A stretch of DNA of 64,000 nt from Endomicrobiia bacterium (GCA_039630545.1 JBCNUU010000006.1:17543-81542), one strand, 5' to 3'. Shown: positions 23,409 through 49,289, numbered from the stretch's first letter. Notes: a model not told the origin generated them from the sequence alone. Numbers and translations: made by a program.

Positions 23409-23482
<74 letters not shown>

Positions 23483-23489
23483 ATTAAAA

Positions 23490-23562
23490 TGAGCCCGGAG
23501 AGATTCGAACTCTCGACACCCGGCTTAAAAGGCCGGTGCTCTACCGACTGAGCTACGGGCCC
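23490..23562 (-). tRNA. tRNA-Lys (TTT)
   Basis: Manual cloverleaf: acceptor GGGCCCG/CGGGCTC (one G-U), anticodon loop CTTTTAA, T-loop TTCGAAT. Confidence 0.82.
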
Positions 23563-23585
23563 TTTTTTTATCAAAATTTTTACTC

Positions 23586-23657
23586 AGCCGGCGAAGGGAT
23601 TTGAACCCCCGACCTGACGCTTACAAGGCGCCTGCTCTACCACTGAGCTACGCCGGC
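23586..23657 (-). tRNA. tRNA-Thr (TGT)
   Basis: Manual cloverleaf: acceptor GCCGGCG/CGCCGGC, anticodon loop CTTGTAA, short variable arm (so not Tyr), T-loop TTCAAAT. Confidence 0.78.
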
Positions 23658-28922: not shown

Positions 28923-31900
28923 TTTGCTACAATTATTGTCCCAGTAAATGTTTTATTACCAACTTTTATTTTATAAATATAAACACCTTTTGGCACAAAG
29001 TTTCCGTTGGTATCTTTCCCATCCCAGGTAAGTTCTACACCTTCTAATTTTAACCTGGCAATATATCTTAAGTTTAAATCATAAACTTCACCTTCAGGTG
29101 TAAACAAAGTAGGATTGAAAATCACAAAATGAATTTTGTTGTCTTGTGACGCTGTTGGTGTAAAGATTTTTTTTGGATAAATATTTGTAATCACAGGTTC
29201 TTGAGTTGAAATGACTTTTCTTACTACATATTCTCCTGTAGACCTTAAAGTACATCTCAAAATACTTTTTTGTTCATCATAAAAACTTGGAACAAGCACA
29301 TATTCAATATCATTATTAAAAAATACTAAAGGTTTTACTTTAACTAAATTTTTTTCTTCCACGAAATTATCGGATGAATAATCTTCATTTTCTTTCTGAA
29401 GAAAAATTTCTAAGTTTATTGGCTGTTTAAACTTATAGGAGACAGGTTTATTATTTCTAACAAGTTCTAATTTATATTTCATAAATGTACTGAAATTAAT
29501 ACTTTCATTTTCTTCAACAGGTACTGTTGTAATGTTAAGTTTATAGCCATAAAATGAAATTTCTTCTTCTACACCTTTTGGAATAACGATCTTCATTGTA
29601 TCTAAAAAGGGAATAATTCTACTTCCCGAATTAAAGGAAGAAACTACATCTGACGGTAAACTTTCTATTCCAGTTTCTGTTACAACCTTTATTAAATAAT
29701 AATAAGTGTTAAAATAAATATAGTCGGTAAATGTCGTAGCCGGAGTTGAGACAAATTTATAAAAAGACGAAGGGTTTAAAACACCTTCATAGTCCTGACT
29801 GCGATAAATGTTATAGCCTTTAATGTCGTCAGCTAAAGAACCATCTGTATATGTTTGCACTTTTTCCCATGATAAAATAAATCTATAATCAGGATTATCA
29901 TAATTTATTTTTTCTATTCTTGAAGGAATATTTATTACTCCTATAAAGAAAGTATTTTTAGTAGGTTCACTAAAAATATCTTCCTCATCTATTGCTATCA
30001 CTTCATAATAATATGTCATATTCTGTGTTAAGTTTATTTGGGGCTGATATGAATTAGATGAAACTTCTACATCAATTACTGGAGAATAAAGATTTTTATT
30101 GGAAAAAATTTTGAGTCTATATTTTTTAATGCTAGTGTTGGGTTCCGGGTGTGGTAAAGGTTCCCATTCAAAAACAGGTCTTCTTAATAAAATTTCTCCT
30201 TCGGGATTTAAAATTTTTACACCTTGAGGTCTAAAATATGGCACATAAAAGCTTAAAACTGAAGAATCTCTCCACAGGCCTCTTTTATCATAAGCGCGTA
30301 TTTTCCAATAATAAGTTGAATTCATTAAGAGCTTAAAATTGATTGTGTAGACAGTAACTGAAGATGAAACCACAATGGATGTTGTAATGTTTAGCTGAAA
30401 ATTTTGTTTTGTTGAAAGTTTAATTTCATAATAGTTTATACCATCGTCTTTATCAAAACCTATCTCCCATATAAACTGAGGCTTTCTTGTAAAAACTGTA
30501 CTTGACGGGGAAAATATTCCAAATGGTTCTGGTGGATCGTTTTGGGAGTCAATGAATAAATAATTAGTTGTAGATATTTTTTGACTAACTTGATTTTTAG
30601 CAACTACATACCAGAAATATGTTGTGTTTTCTTTTAAGGTTGAAGTAGAATATGAAATAGGTTGTAGTTCTTTGTAGTTTTCATAAGGACCTAAAAAAAA
30701 TTCTACTTTATTGGGTGGTTTTCCTAGTTCACCTATGTATAACTCATACGTTATCTGTTTCCACCACTCTGTAATATTTGCGGGTGCCCAAATTAGATTT
30801 AAAGGTTGTGTTGCCCGAGTAAAAGTATAGGATGAACCTGGACTAAGTAGATAAATATCATCGGGAGGATCATCCTGTAGGTCTACTATAAACATGTAAG
30901 ATGAAATGCTTTTTGTATAGTTTGATTTTGTATCATAAGCTTCAACCCACCAGTAGTAGGCTGCATTTTCTTTTAATTTTGATAAATCTATATTATAACT
31001 TAAAGTTGTACTTCCTAAAATAACTATATATGTTGAATCACCTACTATATAGCTTTCTGCTGATGAAATTACTACTTTATATTGTTCTACATAATCCTTT
31101 GGATCAGAGTCATAACTTTGTTGCCAGCTTAAATTTATATATCTTTCTTTTATTACTCCAGAAGTGATATTGAGATAAAAACTTTTTGGATTTTCTTCAT
31201 AAAAATTTACCCAGAAAGAACCAATAGTAGAACTTGAAATCCCTCCATAGTTATCATAAGCCACCACCTGCCAGAAATATTGAGTGTTTTCTTTAAAATC
31301 AAAAAAGATTTCTGCCTCTATAGTTTCTCCTATTTGTTTTCCTATGTTTGTTCCGGCAGAAAATTTTTCATAAACAGAAAAATTTTGAAAACTTGAAATA
31401 TATAAAGTATAGTATAATATATCTCTATCCAAATCTCCATTGTTTTTAAACTTAAATTTAAAAGAAGATAAAACTATTTCATCATTTAAAGGATATACTA
31501 ATTCAAAATTGTTTGGATCAAAATTTGTAGTTTGAAAATAAAATGTAGAGTAGGGTGTCTCAAAATTTCCAAATTTATCATAAGCTTTTACATACCAGTA
31601 ATAAGTGGTCCTAGGATGCAGATCAAAATTTAAAATAAATTTTGTATCTGAAGAATAAAAAGTATAATAAGAAGAAAAATTAGCAAAACTGCTTATTATA
31701 ATTACATAACTTGAAACAAAAGAATCATAGTTGTCTGGATCGTATACTTGTTCCCAGTAAAATGTTGGTCTAAAAGTTTTAATTCCTGATGCAAAAGGAT
31801 GACTTATGCTTACTCCAGGAGACAAAAGATTAAACTTTAATGGCCTCTGGTTTGAAACTATAAATCTTCCGGTACTTAAAGCGACACCATATGGTTTTAC

Positions 31901-34669: not shown

Positions 34670-34700
34670 AAAAATATTTAGCTTCTAAATTTAAATCATC

Positions 34701-35195
34701 TTACTTATTAAAATATACTAATTTTTTAAGGATTATTTCAACACAAATTTTAATTTCTTCTGCTGTATTAAGATAAATACTTTCCGGCTGACCAATTGGA
34801 TCAAAAATTTCTGGCTGTGAAAAAAATCCCGCAAATTCTTTTAAGAGATAAACTTTATCAAAAAATTTCTTAAAATTCAGATAGATGAAATCCATTTGGC
34901 TTTTTTCCATTACAAAAACTATATCGGAAATTTCCAATAAAGGAGAATTTATTTTTGTAGGTATATGTTTTGAAAGGTCTTTTTCTTTGATATTATAGAT
35001 TTTAAAAAGTTTATTAATACTTTCTGGAATTTTAAAGTTTTGCTGTGCTATTACTCCGCAAGAGTAGACTTTAATATTATCTATATTATATTTAGCCAGA
35101 AGATGTAAAGTATATCCTTCAGCAAAAACACTTCTAAATACATTTCCATTACACACATAAAGTATTGTTTTTATTTCTTTCATAAGTTTATTCAA
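34701..35195 (-). CDS. Low-molecular-weight protein tyrosine phosphatase
   Basis: 164 aa; P-loop CX5R (VCNGNVFRS) and DP motif (IFDPIG). Confidence 0.85.
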   Translation of the reverse strand: MNKLMKEIKTILYVCNGNVFRSVFAEGYTLHLLAKYNIDNIKVYSCGVIAQQNFKIPESINKLFKIYNIKEKDLSKHIPTKINSPLLEISDIVFVMEKSQMDFIYLNFKKFFDKVYLLKEFAGFFSQPEIFDPIGQPESIYLNTAEEIKICVEIILKKLVYFNK

Positions 35196-35544
35196 TAAAA
35201 ATTGGATTTGTGGCTAACATATGCGGAAAATCAAACTCTACCCACAACCTACTTGTAGTAAGAAGGTTTTTCCGGATTTTTGTATGAAGACGCGATTTTT
35301 TTTTAGATGTTGCAGCTTTTTAAACTTAAAAATCAAAAACTTTACCTTCAAATTTATATTTTGTCCCCAAAATACCTAATTTTTTAGAAATTTCTATATT
35401 CGATATTTCTAATCTTTTTTTATCCCTCCATACATTATAAAAATTTCAGCTTTTTAAAGAATAAAATAAAGTATATATTTTTTCTTTTTTTATTGCAAAA
35501 AGTATATTTTTTCTTTCATAAATAGATGTTACTTCTTTACCAAT

Positions 35545-35742
35545 TCAGCATAACACCATACAGGTTTTTCCCTTACAGTATTCAACTAAAATTTTATCCC
35601 AGAATCCTTCTATGCTATCAACTTTTTTAACCTTCAGAAATATAACTGTAGCCATCATAATTATAACGATTAAACAAAGATGAAAAATATGGTTTATTAA
35701 GTTTATTTTTTCTAATTCCTGTCCATCTATAACCACTTTCAT
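35545..35742 (-). CDS. Small hypothetical membrane protein (uncertain)
   Basis: 65-aa ORF with one hydrophobic helix, 3 nt downstream of the phosphoesterase gene; no recognisable motif. Confidence 0.3.
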   Translation of the reverse strand: MKVVIDGQELEKINLINHIFHLCLIVIIMMATVIFLKVKKVDSIEGFWDKILVEYCKGKTCMVLC

Positions 35743-35745
35743 AAT

Positions 35746-36870
35746 TTATAAGATATCTATAACAACAACTTCAGATGAGGATAAAAACCTCATAGGAGGA
35801 CCCCAAACCCCTGCACCTGAAGTAACATATAGTGTTGATTTATTTTTTCTAAACAGACCATATAGGTATTTATAAAAAATTCGTGTAAAAATATGAAACG
35901 GGAAAATCTGTCCATTATGGGTATGACCACTTAACATCATAATATCAAAATTTTTGGAAAGTTCATCAAAAAATAACGGCTGGTGTGAGACAACAATATT
36001 AAGTTTTCCTGTTTTGTAGTTATTATTAATTATACTTACAATTTCTTCTTTGTGTAAGTTTTCTGTCCTAATGTCACCTAAGCCTATAATGTTAACATTT
36101 TCAATCTCAAATGAAGTATTCTGTAACACTATAAAACCAAACTGTTCAAAAATTCTTTTTGATTTCTCAATCCCAAAATAATAATCATGATTGCCTAATA
36201 CTGCTATCTTTGTAGAATATATTTTTTTAATTGTTTCTTCTAATTTAACATCATATACAAAACCAGGATCAAACATATCACCACCAAAAATAAGTATTTG
36301 GGGATCTATATTTTTTATTTTATTAAATAACTCTATTGCTATTTTATTCTTGTATTTGAAATCAAGATGTAAATCAGAAAGGTAAACAATCCTGAAACTA
36401 TTATTACCATCTAAATCAACAACAATCTGTTTTATTTTTGACATTTTTATTCCACGATAAGTTGCCAGAGTTGAAGATATTAAACTTACCAATAAAACTC
36501 CTAAACCAATATATTTATTGCTTCCTTTGAGGAATAAAAAAGAAATAAAATCACCAATCACACAATATGAAACAAAAATTATAACAATACCCATCCAATA
36601 AAAACCAAAGAAATAAATTGTTTTTAAAACTGCATCTGGTACTACAACAGCTCTCAAAATTAAACTTAAAAATGAAACCGAAAACATTAAAACAAATATA
36701 AACTTAACTAAATTTTTATAATTGTTTAAAGCTAAATGCCTATTTAAAAAATTAACAATGTATAAATGTGACAAAAAATACCCAAAAATAAGCAAAAGAA
36801 ATCCAACAAGAATAATTACAACTTTTGCCATTATTTTTTTAATTTTTATTGAAATTTTAGTATATACCAC
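35746..36870 (-). CDS. Membrane-anchored calcineurin-like metallophosphoesterase
   Basis: 374 aa; N-terminal TM helices, phosphoesterase motifs (YLSDLHLD, GGDMFD, GNHDYY, GHTHNG). Track start is GTG; a later ATG (MAKVV...) is also possible. Confidence 0.85.
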   Translation of the reverse strand: MVYTKISIKIKKIMAKVVIILVGFLLLIFGYFLSHLYIVNFLNRHLALNNYKNLVKFIFVLMFSVSFLSLILRAVVVPDAVLKTIYFFGFYWMGIVIIFVSYCVIGDFISFLFLKGSNKYIGLGVLLVSLISSTLATYRGIKMSKIKQIVVDLDGNNSFRIVYLSDLHLDFKYKNKIAIELFNKIKNIDPQILIFGGDMFDPGFVYDVKLEETIKKIYSTKIAVLGNHDYYFGIEKSKRIFEQFGFIVLQNTSFEIENVNIIGLGDIRTENLHKEEIVSIINNNYKTGKLNIVVSHQPLFFDELSKNFDIMMLSGHTHNGQIFPFHIFTRIFYKYLYGLFRKNKSTLYVTSGAGVWGPPMRFLSSSEVVVIDIL

Positions 36871-37020
36871 TTAAGATCTGATTTCAACATCATTCTAACA
36901 AGTTCTTCAAATTTTACTTTAGGATACCAACTTAATTTCTTTAGTGCTTTGCTTTAATCATCACACAATTCAAAAATTTCAAAAGCATCTGTAATTTTAC
37001 GCATTACAACATTTAAGAAA
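36867..37020 (-). pseudogene. C-terminal remnant of a GDP-mannose 4,6-dehydratase-like (SDR epimerase/dehydratase) gene
   Basis: Reverse-complement translation LNVVMRKITDAFEIFELCDD*SKALKKLSWYPKVKFEELVRMMLKSDLKW resembles the Gmd C-terminus and carries an in-frame stop; upstream 37020-37390 has only broken frames. Confidence 0.5.
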
Positions 37021-37389
37021 TTTCTTTTTTAAAACTGACAATAAAGATATTGTACTGTCTTATTTTAGTATTTACTGCTAAAAACTCATCTTCAAATAAG
37101 AATAAATAAACTTAGTACAACAAAAACAAACTCTACTTTGAATAGAGCTAACTGCACTATGATTTTATATAGTCCGGCAGAAATCTTTAACCAGTTTTAA
37201 TTTTCTGGCTGTTTTTTCTGCTATGATTGTAGATTTAATAATTTTTACTTCCATGTTTATTGCATTAAACATATCCCAAATTAACATTTCTGTTTGTATA
37301 CCGGTATAATTAACGATGGGTTTATTTTATTACTGTCGTTGCTTGATAAATTGGAATCTATAAATTAGTGTATATTTTCATTATTTTTT

Positions 37390-38466
37390 CTATAAACCAG
37401 ATTTCTGCAGTAATTTTTTAAGTTCTTCCGGATCAGAAGAAGCACTTATGGCTTCTTCCAGACTAATTAATCTTCTTTGATACAAATCTGCTAGTGCTTG
37501 ATTCATTGTTTGCATTCCAAATTTTGCACCAGTTTGAATTAAAGTAAATATTTGTTCTGGCTTTCCTTCACGAATTAAGTTCCTTACAGCAGGTGTAGCA
37601 ACTAACACCTCACAAGCTAAAACTCTACCTTTGCCCGAAATATGCAAAAGAAGCTGCTGTGCCAAAACTGCTTGTAGTACAAAAGAAAGCTGAACTCTTA
37701 CTTGCTGCTGTTGATGAGGTGGAAAAACATCCACTATTCTGTTGACAGTAGAAACAGCATCTGTAGTATGAAGAGTTGCAAAAACCAAATGCCCCGTCTC
37801 GGCTATAGTAAGTGCCGCAGAAATTGTTTCTAGATCGCGCATTTCTCCTATCAAAATAATATCAGGATCTTCTCTTAACACATACTTTAATGCTGTAGCG
37901 AAACTTTCTGTATCTGAACCAACTTCTCTTTGGTTTATTATACAGTTTTTATGATGAAACAGATATTCTATAGGATCTTCTATTGTAATAATATGGGCAT
38001 TTCTATGTTCATTAATAAAATTTATCATAGAAGCTAATGTTGTTGTTTTCCCGGACCCCGTGGGACCTGTTACCAAAATTAAACCCCTTGGAAGATCTAC
38101 AAGTTGAGAAACAATTTTTGGAAGTCTTAATTCTTCAAAAGTAGGAGGAGTCGAAGGAATAGCTCTCAAAGCTGCAGCAACTGCACCCTTTTGACGAAAA
38201 ACATTCATTCTTATTCTTCCTATATCTCTTACTCCAAAAGATACATCCAACTCATTAAGTGTTTCAAACCTTTCTTTCTGTTTATCTGTAAGAACAGAAT
38301 AAATTAGTTTTTGACACATTTCTGGGGTAAGTTTACCAAAAGAGGTAGGTACTAACTTACCATCAACTCTTAACATAGGAGGTAATCCAGCAGTAATATG
38401 TAAATCTGAAGCTTTTTGTTCATGCATTAAATACAACAAATTTTCCATACTTAAAGACATCTCCAT
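37390..38466 (-). CDS. pilT: Type IV pilus retraction ATPase PilT
   Basis: 358 aa; Walker A GPTGSGKTTT, Asp box, Walker B DIILIGEMRD, His box, PilT-type GMQT motif. Confidence 0.92.
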   Translation of the reverse strand: MEMSLSMENLLYLMHEQKASDLHITAGLPPMLRVDGKLVPTSFGKLTPEMCQKLIYSVLTDKQKERFETLNELDVSFGVRDIGRIRMNVFRQKGAVAAALRAIPSTPPTFEELRLPKIVSQLVDLPRGLILVTGPTGSGKTTTLASMINFINEHRNAHIITIEDPIEYLFHHKNCIINQREVGSDTESFATALKYVLREDPDIILIGEMRDLETISAALTIAETGHLVFATLHTTDAVSTVNRIVDVFPPHQQQQVRVQLSFVLQAVLAQQLLLHISGKGRVLACEVLVATPAVRNLIREGKPEQIFTLIQTGAKFGMQTMNQALADLYQRRLISLEEAISASSDPEELKKLLQKSGL

Positions 38467-38492
38467 ATATCAATCCTCCCTTTAAAAATAAT

Positions 38493-40208
38493 TTAAACAC
38501 CTGTTTCTTCACTAACAGTAACTCTTAAAACTTCCTCTATAGTTGTGATTCCAGCAAGCATTTTTCTTATTGCAGATTTTCTTAAAGTAGACATTCCATT
38601 TCTTATAGCTACTTTCTTTATTTCTATATCTGGTGTGTTTTTCAAAATCATTTCTCTTATTTCATCTGTTATCTCCATAATTTCATAAATACCTATCCTT
38701 CCTTTATATCCATTATTACATTTTTTACACCCAGCACCTTTATATAGCACTACTTTTTTTTGTCTTTGAACCATATCATCAGTAACTCCTAAAGGATACA
38801 ACTTCTCTACAGGAACCTCATATGGCTGTTTACATTCTGAACATATTTTCCTTACTAATCTTTGAGCTTCAACTAAAGTAAGTGTGGAAGAAATTAAAAA
38901 TGGATCTATCCCCATATTTACAAGACGCGTTACAGCAGAAGGTGCATCGTTTGTATGAAGAGTAGAAAATACTAACTGACCTGTTAAAGCTGCCTGAATT
39001 GCTATTCTTGCTGTCTCTGTATCACGAATTTCACCTACTAAAATTATATCAGGTGCTTGTCTTAAAAAAGCTCTTAAACCAGAAGCAAATGTTAATCCAA
39101 CTTCAGGATTCACATTTACCTGTGTTATTCCATCTAAAAGATATTCGACAGGATCCTCTATTGTTAATATATTGACTTCTGGACGATTTAAAGTTGAAAG
39201 AGCAGAATATAAAGTAGTTGATTTTCCAGAACCGGTAGGTCCTGTAATCAAAATTAAACCAAAAGGCAACCTAATTGTCCTTAAAAAAATCTCTAGCTGT
39301 TCTGGTTCAAAACCCAATTTTTCAAGATCCAAACACAAGGCAGAAGAATCGAGGATTCTTAAAACTGCTTTTTCTCCATATACCACAGGAAGTATTGAAA
39401 CGCGAAAATCTATCTCTCTTTCATCTATGCGCATTTTTATTCTACCATCTTGAGGTTTTCTTGTTTCTGTAACATCTAGCTTTGACATAATTTTTATTCT
39501 TGCTATCAAGGCATTATAAACATGATGAGGAAAAAATGCTTCCTCTTTTGCTACTCCATCAATCCTGTAGCGCAAACGACATTTCTTTTCAAAGGGTTCA
39601 AGGTGTATATCAGAAGCTCTTTTGCGAACTGCTGTAATAATAATATTATTTGCAAGCTTAACTATAGGTTCTTCTTCCGCAAGTTCCCTTACTTCAACTG
39701 TTTCTGGTATTGGCTCGACTTCTATTGAAGTTTCTAATTTCTCAAGTTCATTTATTTCTTTCTCTATGTGTGTTGTTTCTTCTTTTAAAAGATACTTTCT
39801 TATATTCTCCTTAATATCTTTGAGAGTGGCAACTACCGGCTTAACATTAAGTCCTGTAGAAAGTTTAATGTCATCTATTATAAACAAATTATAAGGATCA
39901 GGAAGAGCCACCGTTAAAGTATTCGTTTTTTTATCAAAACTTATAGGGAAAACATTATGTTTTTCTATAAACGTCCTAGGCAGTAAATTAATTACAGATT
40001 CGTCTATTTCAAGTTCTGAAATATAAACAAAATCCAAATTTTGTTGTCTTGCTAAAAAAGACAAAAGAACATCTTCAGTGATATATCCTAAATTTATCAA
40101 AGTCTGCCCTAATTTTTCACCAGTTTGTTTTTGTAAAGTCAAAGCTTCTTCAAGTTGCTTTTGTGTTATAATATTTGCTGAAATTAAAATTTCACCTAAT
40201 TTTTGCAT
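38493..40208 (-). CDS. pilB: PilB/GspE-family assembly ATPase (paralog 1)
   Basis: 571 aa; N-terminal GSPII_E_N-like domain, Walker A GPTGSGKSTT, tetracysteine motif CSECKQ...CKKC. Confidence 0.9.
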   Translation of the reverse strand: MQKLGEILISANIITQKQLEEALTLQKQTGEKLGQTLINLGYITEDVLLSFLARQQNLDFVYISELEIDESVINLLPRTFIEKHNVFPISFDKKTNTLTVALPDPYNLFIIDDIKLSTGLNVKPVVATLKDIKENIRKYLLKEETTHIEKEINELEKLETSIEVEPIPETVEVRELAEEEPIVKLANNIIITAVRKRASDIHLEPFEKKCRLRYRIDGVAKEEAFFPHHVYNALIARIKIMSKLDVTETRKPQDGRIKMRIDEREIDFRVSILPVVYGEKAVLRILDSSALCLDLEKLGFEPEQLEIFLRTIRLPFGLILITGPTGSGKSTTLYSALSTLNRPEVNILTIEDPVEYLLDGITQVNVNPEVGLTFASGLRAFLRQAPDIILVGEIRDTETARIAIQAALTGQLVFSTLHTNDAPSAVTRLVNMGIDPFLISSTLTLVEAQRLVRKICSECKQPYEVPVEKLYPLGVTDDMVQRQKKVVLYKGAGCKKCNNGYKGRIGIYEIMEITDEIREMILKNTPDIEIKKVAIRNGMSTLRKSAIRKMLAGITTIEEVLRVTVSEETGV

Positions 40209-40225
40209 ATAAGTTTAAATAAAAG

Positions 40226-41956
40226 TTACTCTTCTTCAGCAAATGTATTTTTAATTACTTCTTCAACAGTAGTGATACCCGCTAATAATTTTTTTAAAGC
40301 CGCCTCTCTTAATGTTATCATTCCGTTTTTTCTTGCTTGTTGTTTTATCTCAAAATGAGAAGCTTTTTTAAGGATTAAATCCTTTATTGACTCATTGCAA
40401 TCAATCACTTCAAATATTCCTGTTCTTCCTTTATATCCACCTTGACATTTACTACATCCTGTTCCTTTGTAAATAACTATTTCCTTCATATTCTTTACCA
40501 TTTCAGATGTAACACCTAATGGTTGAAGTTGTTGAAGTGAAACCCTATATTGTCTACGACACTCTTTACATATTTTTCTTAAAAGCTTTTGAGACATCAC
40601 AAGTGTTAAAGTTGAAGCTATTAAAAACGGCTCCACACCCATATTTATCAGCCTTGTTACTGCAGAAGCAGCATCATTTGTATGTAGAGTAGCAAAAACT
40701 AAATGTCCAGTTAAAGCTGCGTTAATACCTATTTCAATTGTTTCTTTATCTCTTATTTCTCCTATCATTATTACATCTGGATCTTGCCTTAAAAACGCAC
40801 GCAAAGCAGCAGCAAAAGTAAGTCCAACTTTTTCATTGACATTTACTTGATTTATACCATACATAACCGCTTCAACAGGATCTTCAACTGTCATAATGTT
40901 TACATCTTCAGTGTTTAAAACATTAAGTGCTGAATATAATGTTGTAGTCTTTCCTGAACCAGTAGGACCTGTAACAAGAATCATTCCATAAGGTTGTTTT
41001 ATAGCTTTTTCAAAAAGCCTAAGTTGTTCTTCCTCAAAACCTAATTCTGTTAAAGGTAAAGTAAGTGCCTGTGCGTCTATTATTCTTATACAAACTTTTT
41101 CTCCATGCGCTGCAGGTATAACTGATAAACGAAGATTTATTGGTTTGCCATTATAAGACATCCTGACTCTTCCATCTTGTGGTTTTCTTCTTTCAGTAAT
41201 GTCCATCTTACCCATTATTTTTATTCTTGCCACTACAGAAGGAAGCAATTTTTTAGGTAGAGGTTTTTGATCATGAAAAACACCGTCAATTCTGTACCTT
41301 ATTCTTACTTGTTTTTCCTGGGGTTCAATAAGAATATCAGAAGCATTTAAATTCAATGCTTGTTCTATTATAAAATTTACAGCTTTTACAACTGGAGCAG
41401 CATCTGCTTTAATATCTAATTCAGTGATATCCTGTTCTTCTACTATTTCAGCAGTGCCTGTTTCTATTTCTGTTTCTGCTTTCTTTTCTATTTCTTCTAT
41501 AGACTCTTTTTTCTCATAGTATTTGTTTATCGCTTCCAAAATCTCTTTTTTTCTTGCTACAACAATTTTTATGTTATAAGGAGTAGCCAACTTAAGACTA
41601 TCAAGGGCTATTATATCTAAAGGATCTGACATAGCTACAGTGAGAGTTTTTGTATTTTTGTCAAACTCAACAGGAATAAACTGAAAAGTTTTTACTAATT
41701 TTTCTGAAACTAACTTAAGAGTATCGGTAGGTATTTCATCAATTTCTGAAAGTGAAATGTAAGGAATATTAAACTGTTTAGCTAAAACAGCAAAAAGGAT
41801 TTCTTCGTTAACAAGTCCTTCTTCTATTAACAACTCACCAAGTTTTTTGCCTGTTTTTTTTTGAGTTTCTAACACACTTTGTAGTTGTTCCTGGGTAATT
41901 AGTCCTAATGCTACAAGAAGTTCTCCTAGTTTCTTATGAGGAGTTATTATTTCCAT
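40226..41956 (-). CDS. pilB: PilB/GspE-family assembly ATPase (paralog 2)
   Basis: 576 aa; same architecture, Walker A GPTGSGKTTT, tetracysteine CKECRR...CSKC; clearly paralogous to the downstream copy. Confidence 0.9.
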   Translation of the reverse strand: MEIITPHKKLGELLVALGLITQEQLQSVLETQKKTGKKLGELLIEEGLVNEEILFAVLAKQFNIPYISLSEIDEIPTDTLKLVSEKLVKTFQFIPVEFDKNTKTLTVAMSDPLDIIALDSLKLATPYNIKIVVARKKEILEAINKYYEKKESIEEIEKKAETEIETGTAEIVEEQDITELDIKADAAPVVKAVNFIIEQALNLNASDILIEPQEKQVRIRYRIDGVFHDQKPLPKKLLPSVVARIKIMGKMDITERRKPQDGRVRMSYNGKPINLRLSVIPAAHGEKVCIRIIDAQALTLPLTELGFEEEQLRLFEKAIKQPYGMILVTGPTGSGKTTTLYSALNVLNTEDVNIMTVEDPVEAVMYGINQVNVNEKVGLTFAAALRAFLRQDPDVIMIGEIRDKETIEIGINAALTGHLVFATLHTNDAASAVTRLINMGVEPFLIASTLTLVMSQKLLRKICKECRRQYRVSLQQLQPLGVTSEMVKNMKEIVIYKGTGCSKCQGGYKGRTGIFEVIDCNESIKDLILKKASHFEIKQQARKNGMITLREAALKKLLAGITTVEEVIKNTFAEEE

Positions 41957-41967
41957 AATATGTAACT

Positions 41968-42456
41968 TTATCTTGCAAATCTTTTCTCTACAATCGGAAT
42001 AATATCTTTTGGAACAAAATCTGAAATATCTCCTCCAAAACTTGCTATTTCTTTTATTAAACTAGAGGATAAATAAATCCATCTTATATCTGGCATAAGA
42101 TATATAGTCTCCATTTCAGGAAACATCTTGCGATTTGTTAAAATCATCTGAAATTCATATTCAAAATCACTTAGTGCCCTTAATCCCCTTAATACAGTGT
42201 TACATTTTTTCTTTCTAAGATAATCTACCAACAACCCATCAAAACTATCAATTTCAACTTTTTTATTAAGATTATTTTTTTTAATTATTTTTTTTAGCAT
42301 TTCTATACGCTCTTCAAGCGAAAAAAAAGGTTTTTTTTGAGGATTGTTAAGGATAGCTACTATAATAAAGTCAAAAATTTTACTTGCTCTAAGAATAAGG
42401 TCTACATGTCCATTAGTCGGAGGGTCAAAACTTCCTGGATATACTATTTTTTTCAT
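41968..42456 (-). CDS. coaD: Phosphopantetheine adenylyltransferase
   Basis: 162 aa; YPGSFDPPTNGHVDL (H/TxGH motif). Confidence 0.95.
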   Translation of the reverse strand: MKKIVYPGSFDPPTNGHVDLILRASKIFDFIIVAILNNPQKKPFFSLEERIEMLKKIIKKNNLNKKVEIDSFDGLLVDYLRKKKCNTVLRGLRALSDFEYEFQMILTNRKMFPEMETIYLMPDIRWIYLSSSLIKEIASFGGDISDFVPKDIIPIVEKRFAR

Positions 42457-42488
42457 TAAAATGTAATTATTAAAATTTTACACTTTTT

Positions 42489-43994
42489 TCAAGAATTTTT
42501 ATAATTCTTTAAAAATTTCTGGATCAAAGATATAGCCTGTTTTCTTGTAGAAATCTTACCGAGAATTTGTGCTTCTTTTATCAGATTTAATAGTTTTCCT
42601 ACCAATGGACCTTGAGGAATTTTAAAGATATTCATAATATCATATCCGTTTAATAATTTTGGTAGTGTTAACTTAGCTTTGTAATCTTTATATATATCTA
42701 GTATTTTATTTTCAAAATTTATAAACTCTTTTAAAGACGAAAAATTCTTAAAATATTTTCTTCTTTCTTTAACAGGAATACTTTCATATGAAATTCTATC
42801 TGCAAGAGAAAACACTAATAAAAAATATATATTATCGCCTACATCTTTAAACAATCGAAGATAAGCCCTTTGTGTTAGGTTGTCTTTATTAACACAGAGA
42901 TTTCCTATCCTCATATGATGTTTTATTACATTCAAAATAACCGAAATATCATCGTTACTTAATTTTAGTTCACGTAAGATCTTTTCTGAAATCTCATATG
43001 ATTTTATTTCATGATGAAAGAATCTAACTTTTCCTTTTATTTTTTTAGCAACTAATGGCTTTGCTATATCATGCAACAATGAAATAAACTTTAAAATATA
43101 TTCTTTCCCTCTTATAGCTGAAAAAATTTCTTTATGATGGCAAGGATAATATTTTTTAATATTTAACAAAATTTTTTCTATACTTCTATAAGTAAGTTTT
43201 ACATGTTGCCATAAACCTTCTGGGTGAAAATAAAATTTTTTAAACTGAGTATTTTTACCTTTCTCTTTTATAATTTTTATATCAGGAAAAATTTCTTCTA
43301 ATATTCCATTTTTGTCCATCCATTCTAATACTTTATAGGATTCATTGTTAAATATTTTTTTAATTTCCTCTAAAATTCTTTCTTTTGCAACTTGTTTAAG
43401 GAAAACTTTGGTTTTTTTTATAAGAAGATTTATTTTTTTGTGTGGTTTGAAACCTAATACATAAAATCTTGCTACTCTGATTATTCTTAAGGGGTCTTTT
43501 AAAAAAACATCTTCTTTTACTACTTTTAATACTTTATCTTTTATATCTTTTTTTGCATTAAGTGGGTCTTCTAAGTTACTAAACAAAATTTTAGTATTAA
43601 AAGAAGATAAAAACCTTATAAAGTGCGATAATTTTAAATATAGGGTATTAATGGTAAAATCTCTTCTTTGAATATCTTCTTGTAAATTTTCATAATTAGT
43701 AAAGTCTAAGTTTATAAAGAAGTTAGTTTCTTTTATAACGGTTCTAAAAACTAAATTTTCTTCATCAAGGACAACAAACGGAAGACTGTTTTTAAGTATT
43801 ATTTCTTTTAGTTTTTCTACTGAAAGATTTTTAACTGCTATATCTATATCAAGCTGGTTTTTTGTTTTAAACAGATTTTTATAAATAAACAGATCTCGCA
43901 AAATACCCCCGACAACAAAACAATCCTTAAAATTTTTATCTATAGTAGATAAAAAATTCTTTAACTTATATAAACTCGTAGGTTCCATTTTCAT
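42489..43994 (-). CDS. cca: tRNA nucleotidyltransferase (CCA-adding) / poly(A) polymerase family, with HD domain
   Basis: 501 aa; GGILRD...DIDIA nucleotidyltransferase motif; HD motif LLHDIAKP. Confidence 0.85.
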   Translation of the reverse strand: MKMEPTSLYKLKNFLSTIDKNFKDCFVVGGILRDLFIYKNLFKTKNQLDIDIAVKNLSVEKLKEIILKNSLPFVVLDEENLVFRTVIKETNFFINLDFTNYENLQEDIQRRDFTINTLYLKLSHFIRFLSSFNTKILFSNLEDPLNAKKDIKDKVLKVVKEDVFLKDPLRIIRVARFYVLGFKPHKKINLLIKKTKVFLKQVAKERILEEIKKIFNNESYKVLEWMDKNGILEEIFPDIKIIKEKGKNTQFKKFYFHPEGLWQHVKLTYRSIEKILLNIKKYYPCHHKEIFSAIRGKEYILKFISLLHDIAKPLVAKKIKGKVRFFHHEIKSYEISEKILRELKLSNDDISVILNVIKHHMRIGNLCVNKDNLTQRAYLRLFKDVGDNIYFLLVFSLADRISYESIPVKERRKYFKNFSSLKEFINFENKILDIYKDYKAKLTLPKLLNGYDIMNIFKIPQGPLVGKLLNLIKEAQILGKISTRKQAISLIQKFLKNYKNS

Positions 43995-44688
43995 GTAATA
44001 TTAACAAATTATCACAAAAATATTCAGCTAAATTTTTATCATGGGTTATAAAAATATACGAAAGCTTTAAATTTTCTTTTATCTCATTTAAAAAATTCAA
44101 CATCTGAGCCTGAAGTGCAACATCCATAGCTGAAAGGGGCTCATCTAAAATCAACATTTTTGGATAAAGACATAACACAAGTAAAACAGCAACTCTCTGC
44201 CTTTGTCCTCCAGAAAGTTGGTAAGGATACATATTTAAAATTTCAAAAGGTAACTTCGTAATGGAAAGAAGCTCTTTGGTTTTTAGTTCTATGTCAGAAT
44301 TTTTAAACTTTAAATTGTTAAGTTTGAAATATTGCTTTATTCTTTCTTTTATTAAATAGCCAACAGTAAACTTTGGATTTAACATTGAATATGGATTTTG
44401 AAACAAAAGCTGCACCTTTAATGCAAATTCCTTAAAAGAATACTCATTTATATTTCTACCTTCTATAAAAATCTCTCCCTCATCAGGAGGTTCTATTTTA
44501 GAAATTATTTTAACAAGCGTAGTTTTGCCTACACCGGATGGACCAAGTATACCTAAGGTTTTATTGTATTCTAAATAAAAACTTACATTTGAAAGAATTT
44601 TTTTTCTTAAAATTTCTACATGAAGCAATTGAGAATAAACAGGATATGTCTTACTTAAAGATTTTACTTCTAAAATATTATTTTTCAT
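43966..44688 (-). CDS. oppF: Oligopeptide-type ABC transporter ATP-binding protein (OppF-like); start moved to internal ATG
   Basis: Walker A GPSGVGKTT, LSGGQRQR, Walker B ILDEPLSAMD. Track start 44847 overlaps oppD by 170 nt; MKNNILEVKSL at 44688 preferred. Confidence 0.85.
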   Translation of the reverse strand: MKNNILEVKSLSKTYPVYSQLLHVEILRKKILSNVSFYLEYNKTLGILGPSGVGKTTLVKIISKIEPPDEGEIFIEGRNINEYSFKEFALKVQLLFQNPYSMLNPKFTVGYLIKERIKQYFKLNNLKFKNSDIELKTKELLSITKLPFEILNMYPYQLSGGQRQRVAVLLVLCLYPKMLILDEPLSAMDVALQAQMLNFLNEIKENLKLSYIFITHDKNLAEYFCDNLLILHENGTYEFI

Positions 44689-45703
44689 ATAAGAAACATT
44701 TAATGAAATGTTTGTCTTCAAATGAGTAAAATTCTGGTTTTGAAAGCTCACATTTTTTAATTTTTTTATTACATCTATTATAAAAAATACATCTTTTAAA
44801 AGTAGCCTCGTCTGTAAGATCAGGTAAATCATACGGAATTGTAGCAAGTTTTTGGCCTTTTTTTGTTTTATCTACAGTACATTCTAAAAGTAACATAGTA
44901 TATGGATGCAGCGGCTTTTCAAAAATTTCTTTAGTATAAGAGTATTCAATAATTTCACCAGCGTATAGAATAAAAACATAATCCACATAATTTCTAACGA
45001 GATTTATATCATGGGTAATAAGAATAAAAGTAGAATTGTTTTCAAATACTAATTCATTAAGTAAATCCATAATAACTTCTTTTAAAGAAGCGTCAAGGGA
45101 AGTGGTAGGTTCATCAGCTATTAAAATTTCTGGTTTGTTAACTACAGCAGCTGCTATACAAATTCTTTGAATCTGACCTCCGGATAATTGATGTGGGTAT
45201 TTATTATAGGTTAACTCAGGCTCAGGAAGTTTTACTTTATGAAATATATCAATGACTTTATGATAAACTTCACTTTTTGAAAATTCAAAATGGTTTGTAA
45301 TTACCTCTTCAACCTGTTTACCAACTGGTATTACTGGATTTAAAGCACTAAAGGGATCCTGAAATATCATAGAAATATGATTACCCCTTAAGTGTAGCAT
45401 ATGATTTTCTGAAAGAAGATTATTTTTGTTTTTACTATTTATTATAAAAATCTCTTTACTACAATTACAGGAATCCTTTTGTGGATAAAATTTAATAATA
45501 CCAGAATAGCTTGTGAATTTTTTGTCGTTTAGTAACATTATGGTGTTAGCAAGGGTAGTTTTACCTGAACCTGATTCTCCTACTATTGCTATCTTTTGAG
45601 ATTGAGAAATAGTTAAACTAATATCTCTTAATATAAATAACTTCTTATTGTTTTTAAGTAAAAAACAAACATTTAAATTTTTTATTTCTAAAACATCTTT
45701 CAT
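44678..45703 (-). CDS. oppD: Oligopeptide-type ABC transporter ATP-binding protein (OppD-like)
   Basis: 341 aa; Walker A GESGSGKTT, LSGGQIQR, Walker B LIADEPTTSLD. Confidence 0.9.
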   Translation of the reverse strand: MKDVLEIKNLNVCFLLKNNKKLFILRDISLTISQSQKIAIVGESGSGKTTLANTIMLLNDKKFTSYSGIIKFYPQKDSCNCSKEIFIINSKNKNNLLSENHMLHLRGNHISMIFQDPFSALNPVIPVGKQVEEVITNHFEFSKSEVYHKVIDIFHKVKLPEPELTYNKYPHQLSGGQIQRICIAAAVVNKPEILIADEPTTSLDASLKEVIMDLLNELVFENNSTFILITHDINLVRNYVDYVFILYAGEIIEYSYTKEIFEKPLHPYTMLLLECTVDKTKKGQKLATIPYDLPDLTDEATFKRCIFYNRCNKKIKKCELSKPEFYSFEDKHFIKCFLYEK

Positions 45704-46506
45704 TTTTCTTTAGGGCTAAACATAATTCTAAAACCTTCAGCTAAAAAGTTAAATCCTATAACAGTGAAAAATATTGCAAGTCCTGGAAATAAAGAAAGCC
45801 ACCACGCTATATGAATATAATCCTTCCCAGATGTAAGAATATTTCCCCATGAAGGCTGTGGAGGCTGAACTCCTAAACCTAAAAAAGATAAAGCTGACTC
45901 TGTCAAAATAGCTGAAGCTATACCTAAACTGAATGTTACAAGAATTGGAGCTAAGACATTTGGTAAAATATGAACAAATATTATCTTAAAGGAAGAAAAA
46001 CCTGCAAGTTTACATGAAAGTATAAATTCCATGTTTTTAATTTTTAAAACTTCTGCTCTAACATATCTTGTAAGAGAAGGCCATGAGGTAAGACCTATTA
46101 CTAACATTATGTTATAAACACTTGGTTTGACGAATGCAATTACCAATAAAATAAGAAAAAAAGTTGGAAAACAAAGCATTATATCGACCAACCTCATTAT
46201 TGCAGTATCTATCCAGCCACCATAATAACCACTTAAAAGTCCTAAACAACTTCCTATAATAGTAGCAACTCCTACTGCTATAAAACCAACACTTAAAGAA
46301 ATTTTAGTAGCATGAATCATTCTTGAAAATACATCTCTCCCAAGTTCATCTGTCCCAAAAAAGTGTTTAAAAGATGGTGGTTTTAATCTATTAAGTAAAT
46401 CTTGCTGATAAGGATCATATGGTGAAAAAAACTTAGCAAAAACTGCTATTACAACAAAAAATGAAACTATAATTAACCCGACTATAAAATAAGTATTTCT
46501 TTTCAT
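45700..46506 (-). CDS. oppC: ABC transporter permease (OppC/DppC-like)
   Basis: 268 aa; 6 TM helices, BPD-transporter loop (SESALSFLGLG). Confidence 0.88.
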   Translation of the reverse strand: MKRNTYFIVGLIIVSFFVVIAVFAKFFSPYDPYQQDLLNRLKPPSFKHFFGTDELGRDVFSRMIHATKISLSVGFIAVGVATIIGSCLGLLSGYYGGWIDTAIMRLVDIMLCFPTFFLILLVIAFVKPSVYNIMLVIGLTSWPSLTRYVRAEVLKIKNMEFILSCKLAGFSSFKIIFVHILPNVLAPILVTFSLGIASAILTESALSFLGLGVQPPQPSWGNILTSGKDYIHIAWWLSLFPGLAIFFTVIGFNFLAEGFRIMFSPKEK

Positions 46507-46507
46507 A

Positions 46508-47476
46508 TCACTTATACCTTACTCTTGGATCTACATAGACATAAAGAATATCAGCTAAAAAATTTCCTAATAGTGTAAGAAATGCAGTTATTACGCTTAT
46601 TCCCATTATTAAAGGATAATCTCTTGACATTATAGCCTCATATCCTAGGCGCCCCATTCCTGGATATGCAAAAATTGTTTCAAATATAAAAGCGCCACCG
46701 ATAATTTCTGGCAAAGATAATCCTAAAATTGTTACAACTGGAATAAGAACATTTTTAAAAGCATGTTTAAAAATTACTTTGTTTTTTGGTGTCCCTTTGC
46801 TAATTGCAAATTTTATATAATCACTGTTTAGTTGTTCTATCATAGTTGCTCTTATATATCTTGTAAGTCCAGCTAATCCGCCAAAAGCAGAAATTAACAC
46901 AGGCAAAATTAAATGTTTAATGATATCTATAAATTTTTCTGTAAAACTTAGATATTCAAAATTTACACTTCTTATTCCTGAAATAGGCAAAAGTTTTAAT
47001 TTTATTCCAAAAATTATCATGCATAAAATTGCTAACCAATATTTAGGAATTGAATATCCCAGAAACACAAAAACAGAAATTATTTTATCTAATAATTTAT
47101 TTTGATATACTGCACAGATAACACCCAGAAATATCCCACCAAAAAAAATTAAAAAAAGAGAAGATATATTAAGAACCAATGTAGCTGGAAGTCTTTCTAA
47201 TATTTTTTTTATCACGGGTCTGTCATCTTTGAAAGAATTTCCAAAATCTAATTTAATAAATCGCACAAGCCAATCGAGATATCTTAAATGAAGCGGTTTA
47301 TCTAATCCATAAATTCTGGCAATTTTCTGTTTTGCTTCATAGGTAATTTTTGAACTAAAATCCATCATATCCTGAGGTTTTCCAGGAGATATATTAATAA
47401 CAAAAAAAGTTATAAAACTTATTCCAAAAAATGTAATAATTAAAATCAGTATTCTTTTTAAAACTATCTTAAGCAT
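46508..47476 (-). CDS. oppB: ABC transporter permease (OppB/DppB-like)
   Basis: 322 aa; polytopic, N-terminal MLKIVLKRILILIITFFGISFITFF typical of OppB. Confidence 0.88.
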   Translation of the reverse strand: MLKIVLKRILILIITFFGISFITFFVINISPGKPQDMMDFSSKITYEAKQKIARIYGLDKPLHLRYLDWLVRFIKLDFGNSFKDDRPVIKKILERLPATLVLNISSLFLIFFGGIFLGVICAVYQNKLLDKIISVFVFLGYSIPKYWLAILCMIIFGIKLKLLPISGIRSVNFEYLSFTEKFIDIIKHLILPVLISAFGGLAGLTRYIRATMIEQLNSDYIKFAISKGTPKNKVIFKHAFKNVLIPVVTILGLSLPEIIGGAFIFETIFAYPGMGRLGYEAIMSRDYPLIMGISVITAFLTLLGNFLADILYVYVDPRVRYK

Positions 47477-47582
47477 ATCTTTTTGCCAGATAGAGTTTTC
47501 TTAGTTATTTATTTAAAAACTATAAAAATTAAAAATTTTTTTCTATTGATAAATAAAAAAATTTTTATTAAAATTTTGAACT

Positions 47583-48722: not shown

Positions 48723-49289
48723 TTAATCTATTAATCTAAACTTATCAATCACTATATATTCTGGACCTTCTGGTTTTAAGATGCTTTGAAAGAATGTAAT
48801 ATGGGTTACTTTGTTTGTTCCAAAAATTTGATTTTTATATTTTTCAATATAATCGACAATTTCATTTATTCTTTTTATTTGTTTAACTCTTGCAATTGTA
48901 AGGTGAGCTGTAAATTCTTTTGTTTCTTTAGGAAAACCCTCTTTTGAAAGCTCACTTTCTATTAAATCTGCAAGGGTTTTAAGTTTGTCTTTGCCTTCTT
49001 TTATTCCTATCCATATAACTCTAGGTGAGTTTATTTTTGGAAAAACTCCTAATCCTTCAAAGGATATATTAAAACTTTCTTTGCTTTGTAGAATTTCTTT
49101 TAAGACATTTTTTACAGTTAAAACCTGTTTTTCGTCAATCTCACCTAAAAACTTCAATGTTATATGAAGGTTTTCTTTTTTTACCCAGGAAATTTTATTT
49201 TTGTCTATTTCACGATAAGTTTTAAATATAAATGTGTCTATTTTCTGCTTGACTTCTTCATCAAGTTCTACAGCTATGAATGTTCTCAT
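48723..49289 (-). CDS. thpR: RNA 2-prime,3-prime-cyclic phosphodiesterase (2H family, ThpR/LigT)
   Basis: 188 aa; two H-x-T/S-x motifs (HITLKF and HLTIAR). Confidence 0.88.
   Translation of the reverse strand: MRTFIAVELDEEVKQKIDTFIFKTYREIDKNKISWVKKENLHITLKFLGEIDEKQVLTVKNVLKEILQSKESFNISFEGLGVFPKINSPRVIWIGIKEGKDKLKTLADLIESELSKEGFPKETKEFTAHLTIARVKQIKRINEIVDYIEKYKNQIFGTNKVTHITFFQSILKPEGPEYIVIDKFRLID

What the first reader, a model, noticed from the sequence alone, without database searches (positions are those of the whole stretch)
37390..41956. Tandem PilB/GspE paralogs plus PilT inside an opp-cca-coaD operon, with no pilC/pilMNOPQ/pilin nearby
Two full-length PilB-type ATPases (each with N-terminal GSPII_E_N-like domain and tetracysteine motif) lie in tandem directly upstream of pilT, all co-directional with oppBCDF, cca and coaD (gaps 11-32 bp). 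No platform protein, secretin or pilin gene is in the window. Inference: paralog specialisation (for example pilus versus secretion or competence) or heteromeric motors, with the structural genes elsewhere.
Basis: partly seen in the sequence, partly recalled or inferred. Interest (0 to 1): 0.45.

Follow-up and report, generated by a model that had tools for sequence, protein, structure and literature searches.

The report
Duplicated pilus motor genes in Endomicrobiia
An uncultured Endomicrobiia bacterium carries two old, still-constrained copies of the pilus-extension motor PilB next to the retraction motor PilT, as the leftover core of a pilus gene cluster whose other genes have moved elsewhere; this is an ordinary type IV pilus system with a lineage-specific twist.

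Summary
On the minus strand lie pilT (37390-38466), PilB-A (38493-40208) and PilB-B (40226-41956). They are co-directional with coaD, a cca-like gene and oppBCDF, with gaps of 11-32 bp. The window contains no pilC, pilin, PilD or secretin.

The window is from an Endomicrobiia (Elusimicrobiota) MAG. Both paralogs are type IVa PilB-like, not GspE-like. Both keep the MshEN c-di-GMP motifs, the zinc CxxC pairs and all catalytic motifs.

They are 51% identical. Each forms a 100%-bootstrap orthologue clade, and dN/dS is about 0.06-0.08. The duplication is therefore old and both copies are maintained.

Comparative loci explain the odd context:
- Other Elusimicrobia carry coaD-pilB-pilT-pilC(-pilA-pilD-pilMN).
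- Deeper Endomicrobiia carry coaD-pilB-pilB-pilT-pilC.
- The window's subclade has lost pilC from the cluster; it now sits at tpiA-pilC-rsfS. A PilC with a neighbouring GenBank accession exists for this MAG.

Right after pilT lies a decayed Wzz/BY-kinase fragment, so the locus ends at a deletion scar.

PilB-A carries a subclade-specific His-box change (H to Q). PilB-B has changes in its N2D domain. Whether the two act separately or as a mixed ring is untested. Similar double-PilB clusters occur in 4 of about 109 unrelated loci. Modest interest.

The parts
37390..38466 (-). pilT, the retraction ATPase (358 aa)
   Evidence: TIGR01420 scores 504.8 bits against a cutoff of 319.1. AVRNLIRE motif at residue 293. 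The only gene here with a clear Shine-Dalgarno sequence, AAGGGAGGA. GenBank MEN3013976.1, named 'type IV pilus twitching motility protein PilT'.
38493..40208 (-). PilB-A, the downstream PilB-type extension ATPase (571 aa)
   Evidence: TIGR02538 scores 687 bits against a cutoff of 675.65; GspE TIGR02533 scores 590.7 against 630.25. Best solved relatives are Geobacter PilB 6olj/5tsg at 574 bits. Walker A, Asp box, Walker B and the Arg fingers are intact. CxxC pairs at residues 456 and 494. MEN3013977.1.
40226..41956 (-). PilB-B, the upstream PilB-type extension ATPase (576 aa)
   Evidence: TIGR02538 scores 658.3 bits, just under the 675.65 cutoff; GspE scores 586.1. Best solved relatives are Geobacter PilB at 540 bits. 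All ATPase motifs are intact, including TGH. CxxC pairs at residues 463 and 501. MEN3013978.1, named only 'ATPase, T2SS/T4P/T4SS family'.
41774..41932 (-). PilB-B MshEN 53-residue c-di-GMP motif pair (residues 9-61)
   Evidence: KLGELLVALGLITQEQLQSVLETQ and KLGELLIEEGLVNEEILFAVLAKQ both fit the extended consensus (R/K/L)LGxx(LVI)(LVI)xxG(LVI)(LVI)xxxxLxxxLxxQ of PMC11731258. NF053729 scores 64.3 bits against a cutoff of 38.
40044..40202 (-). PilB-A MshEN motif pair (residues 3-55)
   Evidence: Motif II fits the consensus. Motif I (KLGEILISANIITQKQLEEALTLQ) has N at the Gly-10 position, as do M. xanthus and Geobacter PilB. NF053729 scores 72.6 bits against a cutoff of 38.
38949..38984 (-). PilB-A His box TGQLVFSTLHTN (Q411 in place of the near-invariant His)
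   Evidence: Q411 aligns with H413 of G. metallireducens PilB. His occupies this position in 44/44 B orthologues and 143/143 other PilBs. Q occurs in the 21 A orthologues that are >=76% identical to the window; the 8 deeper A orthologues keep H.
41968..42456 (-). coaD (phosphopantetheine adenylyltransferase), the conserved upstream neighbour
   Evidence: TIGR01510 scores 194.4 bits against a cutoff of 103.3. A CoaD homologue lies immediately upstream of pilB in all 10 Elusimicrobia loci examined and in none of the other roughly 110 PilB loci.
42489..47476 (-). cca-like nucleotidyltransferase plus oppB/C/D/F-like ABC importer genes, co-directional; linked to the pil genes only in this subclade
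   Evidence: Pfam and NCBIfam hits all fall below equivalog cutoffs. The same order occurs in L001, L002, L035 and L036. It is replaced by uvrA, recG or mnmG in L032, L037, L034 and L041.
37129..37375 (-). Decayed remnant of a Wzz/BY-kinase gene directly downstream of pilT
   Evidence: tblastn with the intact 633-aa L002 protein matches its residues 45-127 across two reading frames with in-frame stops (E=1e-16). The gene is intact after pilT in L001 and L002, where it opens an EPS cluster.

Best explanation
This is the cytoplasmic motor module of a type IVa pilus in an Endomicrobiia bacterium: two PilB-type extension ATPases and one PilT retraction ATPase.

It is the eroded core of a gene cluster that is ancestral to the phylum, coaD-pilB-pilT-pilC(-pilA-pilD-pilMN). 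pilB was duplicated in tandem early in an Endomicrobiia lineage. Both copies have been kept under purifying selection since then. In the window's subclade pilC moved to a tpiA-pilC-rsfS position. In this genome the EPS cluster that had come to follow pilT was largely deleted.

Inferred mechanism: each PilB forms a zinc-stabilised hexamer. The hexamer docks on the PilC/PilM platform encoded elsewhere and uses ATP to insert pilins, while PilT replaces it to retract the pilus. Each PilB carries an N-terminal MshEN domain with lysine-type motifs that should bind c-di-GMP.

The most likely reason two are kept is sub-functionalisation. They would be two differently tuned or differently regulated extension motors that take turns on the same platform, or that serve different pilin sets.

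Shown: gene identities, domain and motif integrity, age of the duplication, selective constraint, and the history of the gene order. Inferred: c-di-GMP binding, homo-hexamer formation, a shared platform, and the nature of the specialisation.
For: - Identity: NCBIfam and Pfam scores; PDB matches rank PilB above PilF above GspE for both copies.
- Motifs: Walker A, Asp box, Walker B with the catalytic Glu, Arg fingers, the second His-box His and both CxxC pairs are conserved in the A and B clades.
- MshEN: the NF053729 domain model passes for both. Lysine-first motifs match the high-affinity PilF GSPII-B type.
- Age and constraint: 51% identity; A and B clades each have 100/100 bootstrap support; both are about 51-53% identical to other PilBs. 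dN/dS against L001 is 0.057 for A, 0.080 for B and 0.040 for pilT.
- Gene-order history: single pilB with pilT-pilC in L041 and L042. Tandem pilB with pilT-pilC in L032, L033, L034 and L037. Tandem pilB with pilT but no pilC in L001, L002, L035, L036 and the window.
- pilC: found at tpiA-pilC-rsfS on the same contig as L036. For this MAG it is found by its neighbouring accession.
- Wzz remnant directly after pilT.
Against: - No pilin, PilM/N/O/Q or PilD from this genome could be inspected.
- Assigning PilC to the same MAG rests on accession proximity, not on a shared contig.
- PilB-B falls 17 bits under the PilB equivalog cutoff.
- PilB-A has replaced a His that is invariant in 187 comparators, and a conserved Asp before Walker B. 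Its ATPase kinetics or cooperativity may therefore differ from a canonical PilB.
- Nothing here distinguishes homo-hexamers from hetero-hexamers.
- No diguanylate cyclase was seen in the window, so c-di-GMP signalling in this organism is unverified.
- Co-transcription is unsupported beyond short gaps and conserved order.
Confidence: 0.72

Rival explanations
1. The two PilBs serve two different machines: one ordinary type IVa pilus, and one second filament encoded elsewhere (a competence pseudopilus, a T2SS-like endopilus or a second pilus type). PilT would serve one or both. This follows the one-PilB-per-pilus pattern.
For: - Precedent: Saccharibacteria TM7x PilB1 and PilB2 each build a distinct pilus with a single PilT.
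- Endomicrobium genomes are reported to carry several pilin types and PulG-like pilins.
- The old duplication and strong constraint on both copies fit distinct essential roles.
Against: - In the deeper relatives the two pilB genes share one cluster with one pilT and one pilC. In TM7x each PilB has its own PilC.
- Both copies score as PilB rather than GspE or ComGA.
- No second platform gene was seen within +/-10 kb in any of the tandem-pilB loci.
Confidence: 0.25
2. A and B co-assemble into a mixed (for example alternating) hexamer that is the actual extension motor, so both are needed for one machine.
For: - Strict tandem linkage is kept in all 9 tandem-pilB loci examined (the window and 8 fetched).
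- Substitutions at otherwise >=90%-conserved positions are reciprocal. A changed in the C-terminal ATPase domain: N362T by the Asp box, D385A before Walker B, H411Q in the His box, and E435D. B changed in N2D: H209L in the SDIH motif, and D274N two residues before the equivalent of Arg finger R271.
- McCallum et al. place the His box at the inter-chain interface.
Against: - I found no report of a heteromeric PilB/GspE-type ring, but my paper searches did not target that question.
- Both copies retain a full catalytic set and could work alone.
- The H411Q change is younger than the duplication, so it cannot be part of an original heteromer design.
- No structural mapping or multimer prediction could be run.
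Confidence: 0.1
3. One paralog (more likely PilB-A in the window's subclade) has shifted toward a signalling role. It would couple pilus or c-di-GMP status to exopolysaccharide production, as described for M. xanthus PilB and T. thermophilus PilF, while the other copy does the assembly work.
For: - MshEN-positive PilBs regulate EPS in M. xanthus and T. thermophilus.
- In the closest relatives pilT is followed directly by a Wzz/BY-kinase-Wzy-glycosyltransferase-flippase cluster.
- PilB-A carries the His-box and pre-Walker-B substitutions.
Against: - The window itself has lost that EPS cluster yet keeps both PilBs intact.
- Deeper relatives with both PilBs have no EPS genes nearby.
- A retains Walker A, the catalytic Glu and the Arg fingers.
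- Adjacency to EPS genes is confined to two loci.
Confidence: 0.08

Closest known systems
Type IVa pilus pilB-pilT-pilC motor cluster (Myxococcus xanthus, Geobacter; structures 3jc8, 5tsg, 6olj, 5zfr)
   Same: - Same three-domain PilB (MshEN/GSPII N-terminus, N2D, ATPase domain with a tetracysteine motif), at 535-574 bits to these structures.
- PilT immediately downstream.
- pilC next in line in the deeper relatives.
   Different: - Two PilB genes in tandem instead of one.
- pilC detached in the window's subclade.
- coaD as the fixed upstream neighbour.
- PilB-A has Q for Geobacter H413.
MshEN-type c-di-GMP-binding ATPases (V. cholerae MshE; T. thermophilus PilF GSPII-B; C. thermophilum PilB)
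   Same: - Two 24-residue motifs separated by 5 residues at the extreme N-terminus.
- Both paralogs pass the NF053729 domain model.
- Lysine at motif position 1, as in PilF GSPII-B and CtPilB, which bind at 6-53 nM.
   Different: - Binding is not measured here.
- PilB-A motif I has Asn at the Gly-10 turn, shared with MxPilB and GmPilB.
- There is one MshEN domain per protein on each of two proteins, rather than three on one protein as in PilF.
Organisms with two PilB paralogs for two pili (Saccharibacteria TM7x PilB1/PilB2; also Synechocystis and Clostridium PilB1/PilB2, the latter two from my own knowledge)
   Same: More than one PilB-type extension ATPase in one genome with a single PilT.
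   Different: In those organisms the paralogs lie in separate loci, each with its own PilC. Here they are adjacent and, ancestrally, share one pilT-pilC cluster.
Double-PilB clusters in unrelated metagenomic contigs (L046 pilT-pilB-pilB-pilC; L048 and L079 pilB-pilT-pilB-pilC; L088)
   Same: Two PilB-type genes plus pilT and pilC in one cluster.
   Different: - Different gene orders.
- No coaD linkage.
- 40-50% identity to the window proteins, so these are independent occurrences of unknown taxonomy.

Membership tests
Type IV-A pilus assembly ATPase PilB (TIGR02538) | Score at or above the curated equivalog cutoff (675.65 bits) | tested here: inconclusive
   PilB-A scores 687.0 and passes. PilB-B scores 658.3 and just fails. 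TIGR02538 is the top-scoring model for both.
Type IV-A pilus assembly ATPase PilB | Intact Walker A, Asp box, atypical Walker B with catalytic Glu, His box and Arg fingers | tested here: met
   All are present in both copies and conserved across both clades. The exception is the first His-box His in PilB-A, which is Gln in the window's subclade; the gamma-phosphate-contacting second His is kept.
Type IV-A pilus assembly ATPase PilB | Tetracysteine zinc motif of the PilB/GspE clade | tested here: met
   CSEC and CKKC at residues 456 and 494 in A; CKEC and CSKC at 463 and 501 in B. Conserved in both clades.
Type IV-A pilus assembly ATPase PilB | Genomic association with pilT, pilC and pilins | tested here: met
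   pilT is adjacent in the window. pilC follows directly in L032, L033, L034 and L037, with a pilin and PilD as well in L034. In the window's subclade pilC is elsewhere.
Type IV-A pilus assembly ATPase PilB | Powers pilus extension in vivo | not testable with these tools
   Uncultured organism; no functional data.
Type II secretion ATPase GspE (TIGR02533) | Score at or above the equivalog cutoff (630.25 bits), with gsp genes nearby | tested here: not met
   A scores 590.7 and B scores 586.1. No gsp or secretin genes occur in the window or in the related loci.
MshEN c-di-GMP receptor domain | Two 24-residue (R/K/L)LGxx(LVI)(LVI)xxG(LVI)(LVI)xxxxLxxxLxxQ motifs separated by 5 residues | tested here: met
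   In B both motifs fit. In A motif II fits and motif I has N at Gly-10, as in MxPilB. NF053729 scores 72.6 and 64.3 against a cutoff of 38.
MshEN c-di-GMP receptor domain | Measured c-di-GMP binding | not testable with these tools
   Needs ITC or DRaCALA on purified N-terminal domains.
PilT retraction ATPase (TIGR01420) | Score above cutoff, plus the AIRNLIRE-type motif that distinguishes PilT from PilU (the motif's role is from my own knowledge) | tested here: met
   504.8 bits against a cutoff of 319.1. AVRNLIRE at residues 293-300.

The most novel reading that the evidence does not exclude
PilB-A and PilB-B are obligate partners on one platform, either as a mixed hexamer or as two rings acting in sequence. 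On this reading the reciprocal substitutions are the signature of a two-component extension motor. Those substitutions are A's in the ATPase domain around the Asp box, Walker B and His box, and B's in N2D next to an Arg finger. No such motor has been described for type IV filament ATPases in the literature I searched.
Probability: 0.1. Interest if true: 0.65.

Novelty: new member of a known kind. Interest (0 to 1): 0.27.

Why it matters
The finding gives a clean, dated natural experiment in which a pilus extension motor was duplicated in place. Both copies were then kept for a long evolutionary span next to a single PilT and, ancestrally, a single PilC.

If the two PilBs share one platform, the pair would be a useful system for two questions. 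One is how extension ATPases compete for or cooperate on PilC. The other is how c-di-GMP input is partitioned between them.

It also documents a phylum-wide coaD-pilB linkage. And it shows step by step how a canonical pil cluster disperses, which cautions against reading 'no pilC nearby' as something unusual.

Taken alone it does not change the current understanding of type IV pili.

Tried and rejected
- The promoter/terminator scan of 34500-48800 gave counts equal to shuffled sequence, so it says nothing about operon structure.
- Rfam found only the six tRNAs; there is no RNA element in the 520-bp stretch after pilT.
- The exact-sequence look-up of the window's PilB-A returned 'not on record', so the window's own assembly could not be walked. 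Accession numbering was used instead.
- The metagenome-contig scan with PilB-B was dominated by a generic Walker-B pattern and returned only PilBs of <=46% identity. It was useless for orthologues but served as a background set.
- Monophyly of A+B against other Elusimicrobia PilBs is unresolved (34/100 bootstraps, neighbour-joining). I therefore do not claim where exactly in the phylum the duplication happened.
- I first read PilB-A motif I as degenerate because it fails the relaxed regex of Wang et al. at Gly-10. I withdrew this after seeing the same Asn in M. xanthus and Geobacter PilB.
- I first treated Lys for Arg at motif position 1 as a weakness. I withdrew this because Lys gives higher affinity in PilF GSPII-B.
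- Recent duplication or a decaying copy is rejected by 51% identity and dN/dS below 0.1.
- I looked for a pilC remnant in the gap after pilT. None is there; the remnant is of a Wzz-family gene instead.

Full report
**What is there.** The window is AT-rich (about 29% GC). The stretch in question carries a run of minus-strand genes:
- oppB (46508-47476)
- oppC (45700-46506)
- oppD (44678-45703)
- oppF (43966-44847)
- a cca-like nucleotidyltransferase (42489-43994)
- coaD (41968-42456)
- PilB-B (40226-41956)
- PilB-A (38493-40208)
- pilT (37390-38466)

Pfam and NCBIfam confirm the identities. pilT scores 504.8 bits on TIGR01420 against a cutoff of 319.1 and carries an AVRNLIRE motif. Both large proteins have an N-terminal MshEN domain, a full-length T2SSE ATPase domain and two CxxC pairs.

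Pfam scans of the long, non-overlapping ORFs (all >=100 aa except a handful lying antisense within larger genes) gave housekeeping functions only. tblastn with Endomicrobiia PilC, pilin and PilD and a six-frame scan for the prepilin signal motif found nothing.

**Whose genome.** The proteins are already in GenBank. They are MEN3013976.1 (PilT), MEN3013977.1 ('type IV-A pilus assembly ATPase PilB') and MEN3013978.1 ('ATPase, T2SS/T4P/T4SS family'), all from an 'Endomicrobiia bacterium' MAG. The nearest genome loci are two Endomicrobia MAGs, SKYB53 and SKYB98, at 90% and 83% identity.

**What kind of ATPases.** Both paralogs score best against the type IV-A PilB model: A 687.0 and B 658.3, against a cutoff of 675.65. 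Both fall below the GspE cutoff of 630.25, at 590.7 and 586.1. Against solved structures both rank Geobacter and Myxococcus PilB first, then Thermus PilF, then GspE. The 'pilus versus secretion' idea is therefore not supported.

**Age of the duplication.** A and B are 51% identical. Homologue searches return two orthologue series. The A series runs from 100% down to 66% identity, and the B series from 100% down to 64%. Members of the two series share contigs.

In a neighbour-joining analysis each series is a clade in 100 of 100 bootstraps. A+B together is recovered in only 34. A and B are as far from each other (52%) as each is from other PilBs in the set, which are mostly from Elusimicrobia (53% and 51%). 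Against the closest relative, dN/dS is 0.057 for A, 0.080 for B and 0.040 for pilT. This is an old duplication with both copies maintained.

**Why the context looks odd.** Ten related Elusimicrobia loci, with the window as an eleventh, give a clear series.
- Other Elusimicrobia have coaD-pilB-pilT-pilC. In L042 this is followed by a pilin, PilD, PilM and PilN.
- Deeper Endomicrobiia relatives have coaD-pilB(B)-pilB(A)-pilT-pilC. L034 adds a pilin and PilD.
- The closer relatives and the window have cca-coaD-B-A-pilT with no pilC and with variable genes after pilT.

CoaD sits directly upstream of pilB in all ten Elusimicrobia loci and in none of about 110 other PilB loci. What lies upstream of coaD changes: uvrA, recG, mnmG, or a divergent promoter region. 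The conserved unit is therefore coaD plus the pil genes, not opp-cca-coaD.

In a close relative whose pilB-pilB-pilT looks like the window's, pilC is on the same contig about 100 kb away, between tpiA and rsfS-argS. A PilC in the same tpiA-pilC-rsfS context carries accession MEN3014159.1. That is 181 numbers from the window's proteins and has the same organism label. I take this as the window MAG's own pilC. This is an inference from accession order, not from a shared contig.

**The scar after pilT.** The 520-bp 'gap' after pilT is not empty. Positions 37129-37375 match residues 45-127 of a 633-aa Wzz/BY-kinase protein across two reading frames with in-frame stops. That gene is intact right after pilT in SKYB53 and SKYB98. 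In SKYB98 it opens a Wzy-glycosyltransferase-flippase cluster. The window genome has deleted that cluster.

**Differences between the paralogs.** All residues that McCallum et al. list as universally conserved are present in both clades. These are Walker A, the Asp-box Glu, Walker B with the catalytic Glu, and two Arg fingers.

At 177 columns that are >=90% conserved in other PilBs:
- A has five clade-specific changes, all in the ATPase domain. They are N362T beside the Asp box, D385A/S before Walker B, H411Q in the His box, E435D and I246V.
- B has nine. They include H209L in the N2D SDIH motif and D274N, two residues before the equivalent of Geobacter Arg finger R271.

Q411 aligns with Geobacter H413. 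In that structure H413 helps clamp T411 at the inter-chain contact. His occupies this position in all 44 B orthologues and all 143 other PilBs. Gln occurs in the 21 A orthologues that are >=76% identical to the window's. Among the A orthologues with a fetched locus, this is the same subclade that lost pilC from the cluster. This is the one feature a specialist might pause over. It is younger than the duplication and its effect is unknown.

**c-di-GMP input.** Both N-termini pass NCBI's MshE-related c-di-GMP domain model, at 72.6 and 64.3 bits against a cutoff of 38. All four motifs start with Lys rather than Arg. In Thermus PilF GSPII-B that Lys contributes to 6 nM binding, and the consensus was extended to R/K/L. 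B fits both motifs. A fits motif II and has Asn at the Gly-10 turn of motif I, as do M. xanthus and Geobacter PilB. Binding is predicted, not shown. No cyclase was seen in the window.

**How unusual is it.** Among about 109 unrelated PilB loci fetched as background, four also hold two PilB-type genes together with pilT and pilC, in other orders. PilB paralogs in separate loci are well known; for example Saccharibacteria PilB1 and PilB2 each build a distinct pilus. I found no paper describing the Endomicrobiia tandem pair. Published Endomicrobia genome papers mention only pilins, PilD and Tad-like regions.

**Verdict.** This is a real and well-defined type IVa pilus motor module containing an old tandem PilB duplication. 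It sits in the eroded remnant of a phylum-typical cluster.
- The 'structural genes elsewhere' inference is supported.
- The 'secretion paralog' idea is not supported.
- The 'heteromeric motor' idea remains an untested minority possibility.

It is a new member of a known kind, of modest interest.

Noticed in passing
window 37129-37375 (-): Frameshifted, stop-containing remnant of a Wzz/BY-kinase gene directly after pilT. The gene is intact in the two closest MAGs, where it starts an EPS cluster. The window genome has lost that cluster.
   Followed up: yes
L042 871-6767: In another Elusimicrobia contig, a FliG-like protein (611 aa, FliG_M/FliG_C) plus MotA/ExbB-like and MotB/OmpA-like genes lie divergently next to coaD-pilB-pilT-pilC. 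The phylum is reported to lack flagella (PMC11257099).
   Followed up: no
window 28919-35195 (-): A low-molecular-weight phosphotyrosine phosphatase (34701-35195) followed by a 1916-aa fn3/Ig-repeat protein. It has a hydrophobic N-terminus that I read as a signal peptide; no predictor was run. The same pair (LMWPc plus a 1924-aa protein) recurs in relatives L038 and L039, so it is a conserved unit of unknown role.
   Followed up: partly
window 4309-6531: A 2.2-kb stretch at 24-26% GC with only short ORF fragments, some of which look methyltransferase-like to me (not searched against any family library). It lies inside a glycosyltransferase/flippase cluster and is probably pseudogene debris.
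   Followed up: no
window 43966-44847 (-): The oppF ORF as listed starts at TTG and overlaps oppD by 170 bp. Relatives' oppF is 242 aa, so the true start is probably further downstream. No substrate-binding (oppA) gene accompanies oppBCDF; a DUF4015 glycosyl-hydrolase-like gene is divergent at 47583-48722.
   Followed up: partly
window 23110-23657 (-): Cluster of six tRNA genes (Asp, Val, His, Arg, Lys, Thr).
   Followed up: yes
L046, L048, L079, L088: Unrelated metagenomic contigs with two PilB-type genes in one pil cluster (pilT-pilB-pilB-pilC or pilB-pilT-pilB-pilC). Double extension ATPases in one cluster may therefore be a recurrent but undescribed arrangement.
   Followed up: partly
window 11862-12311 (-): This ORF has the PurS domain only in residues 81-148 of 149. 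It has either an N-terminal extension or an over-called start.
   Followed up: no
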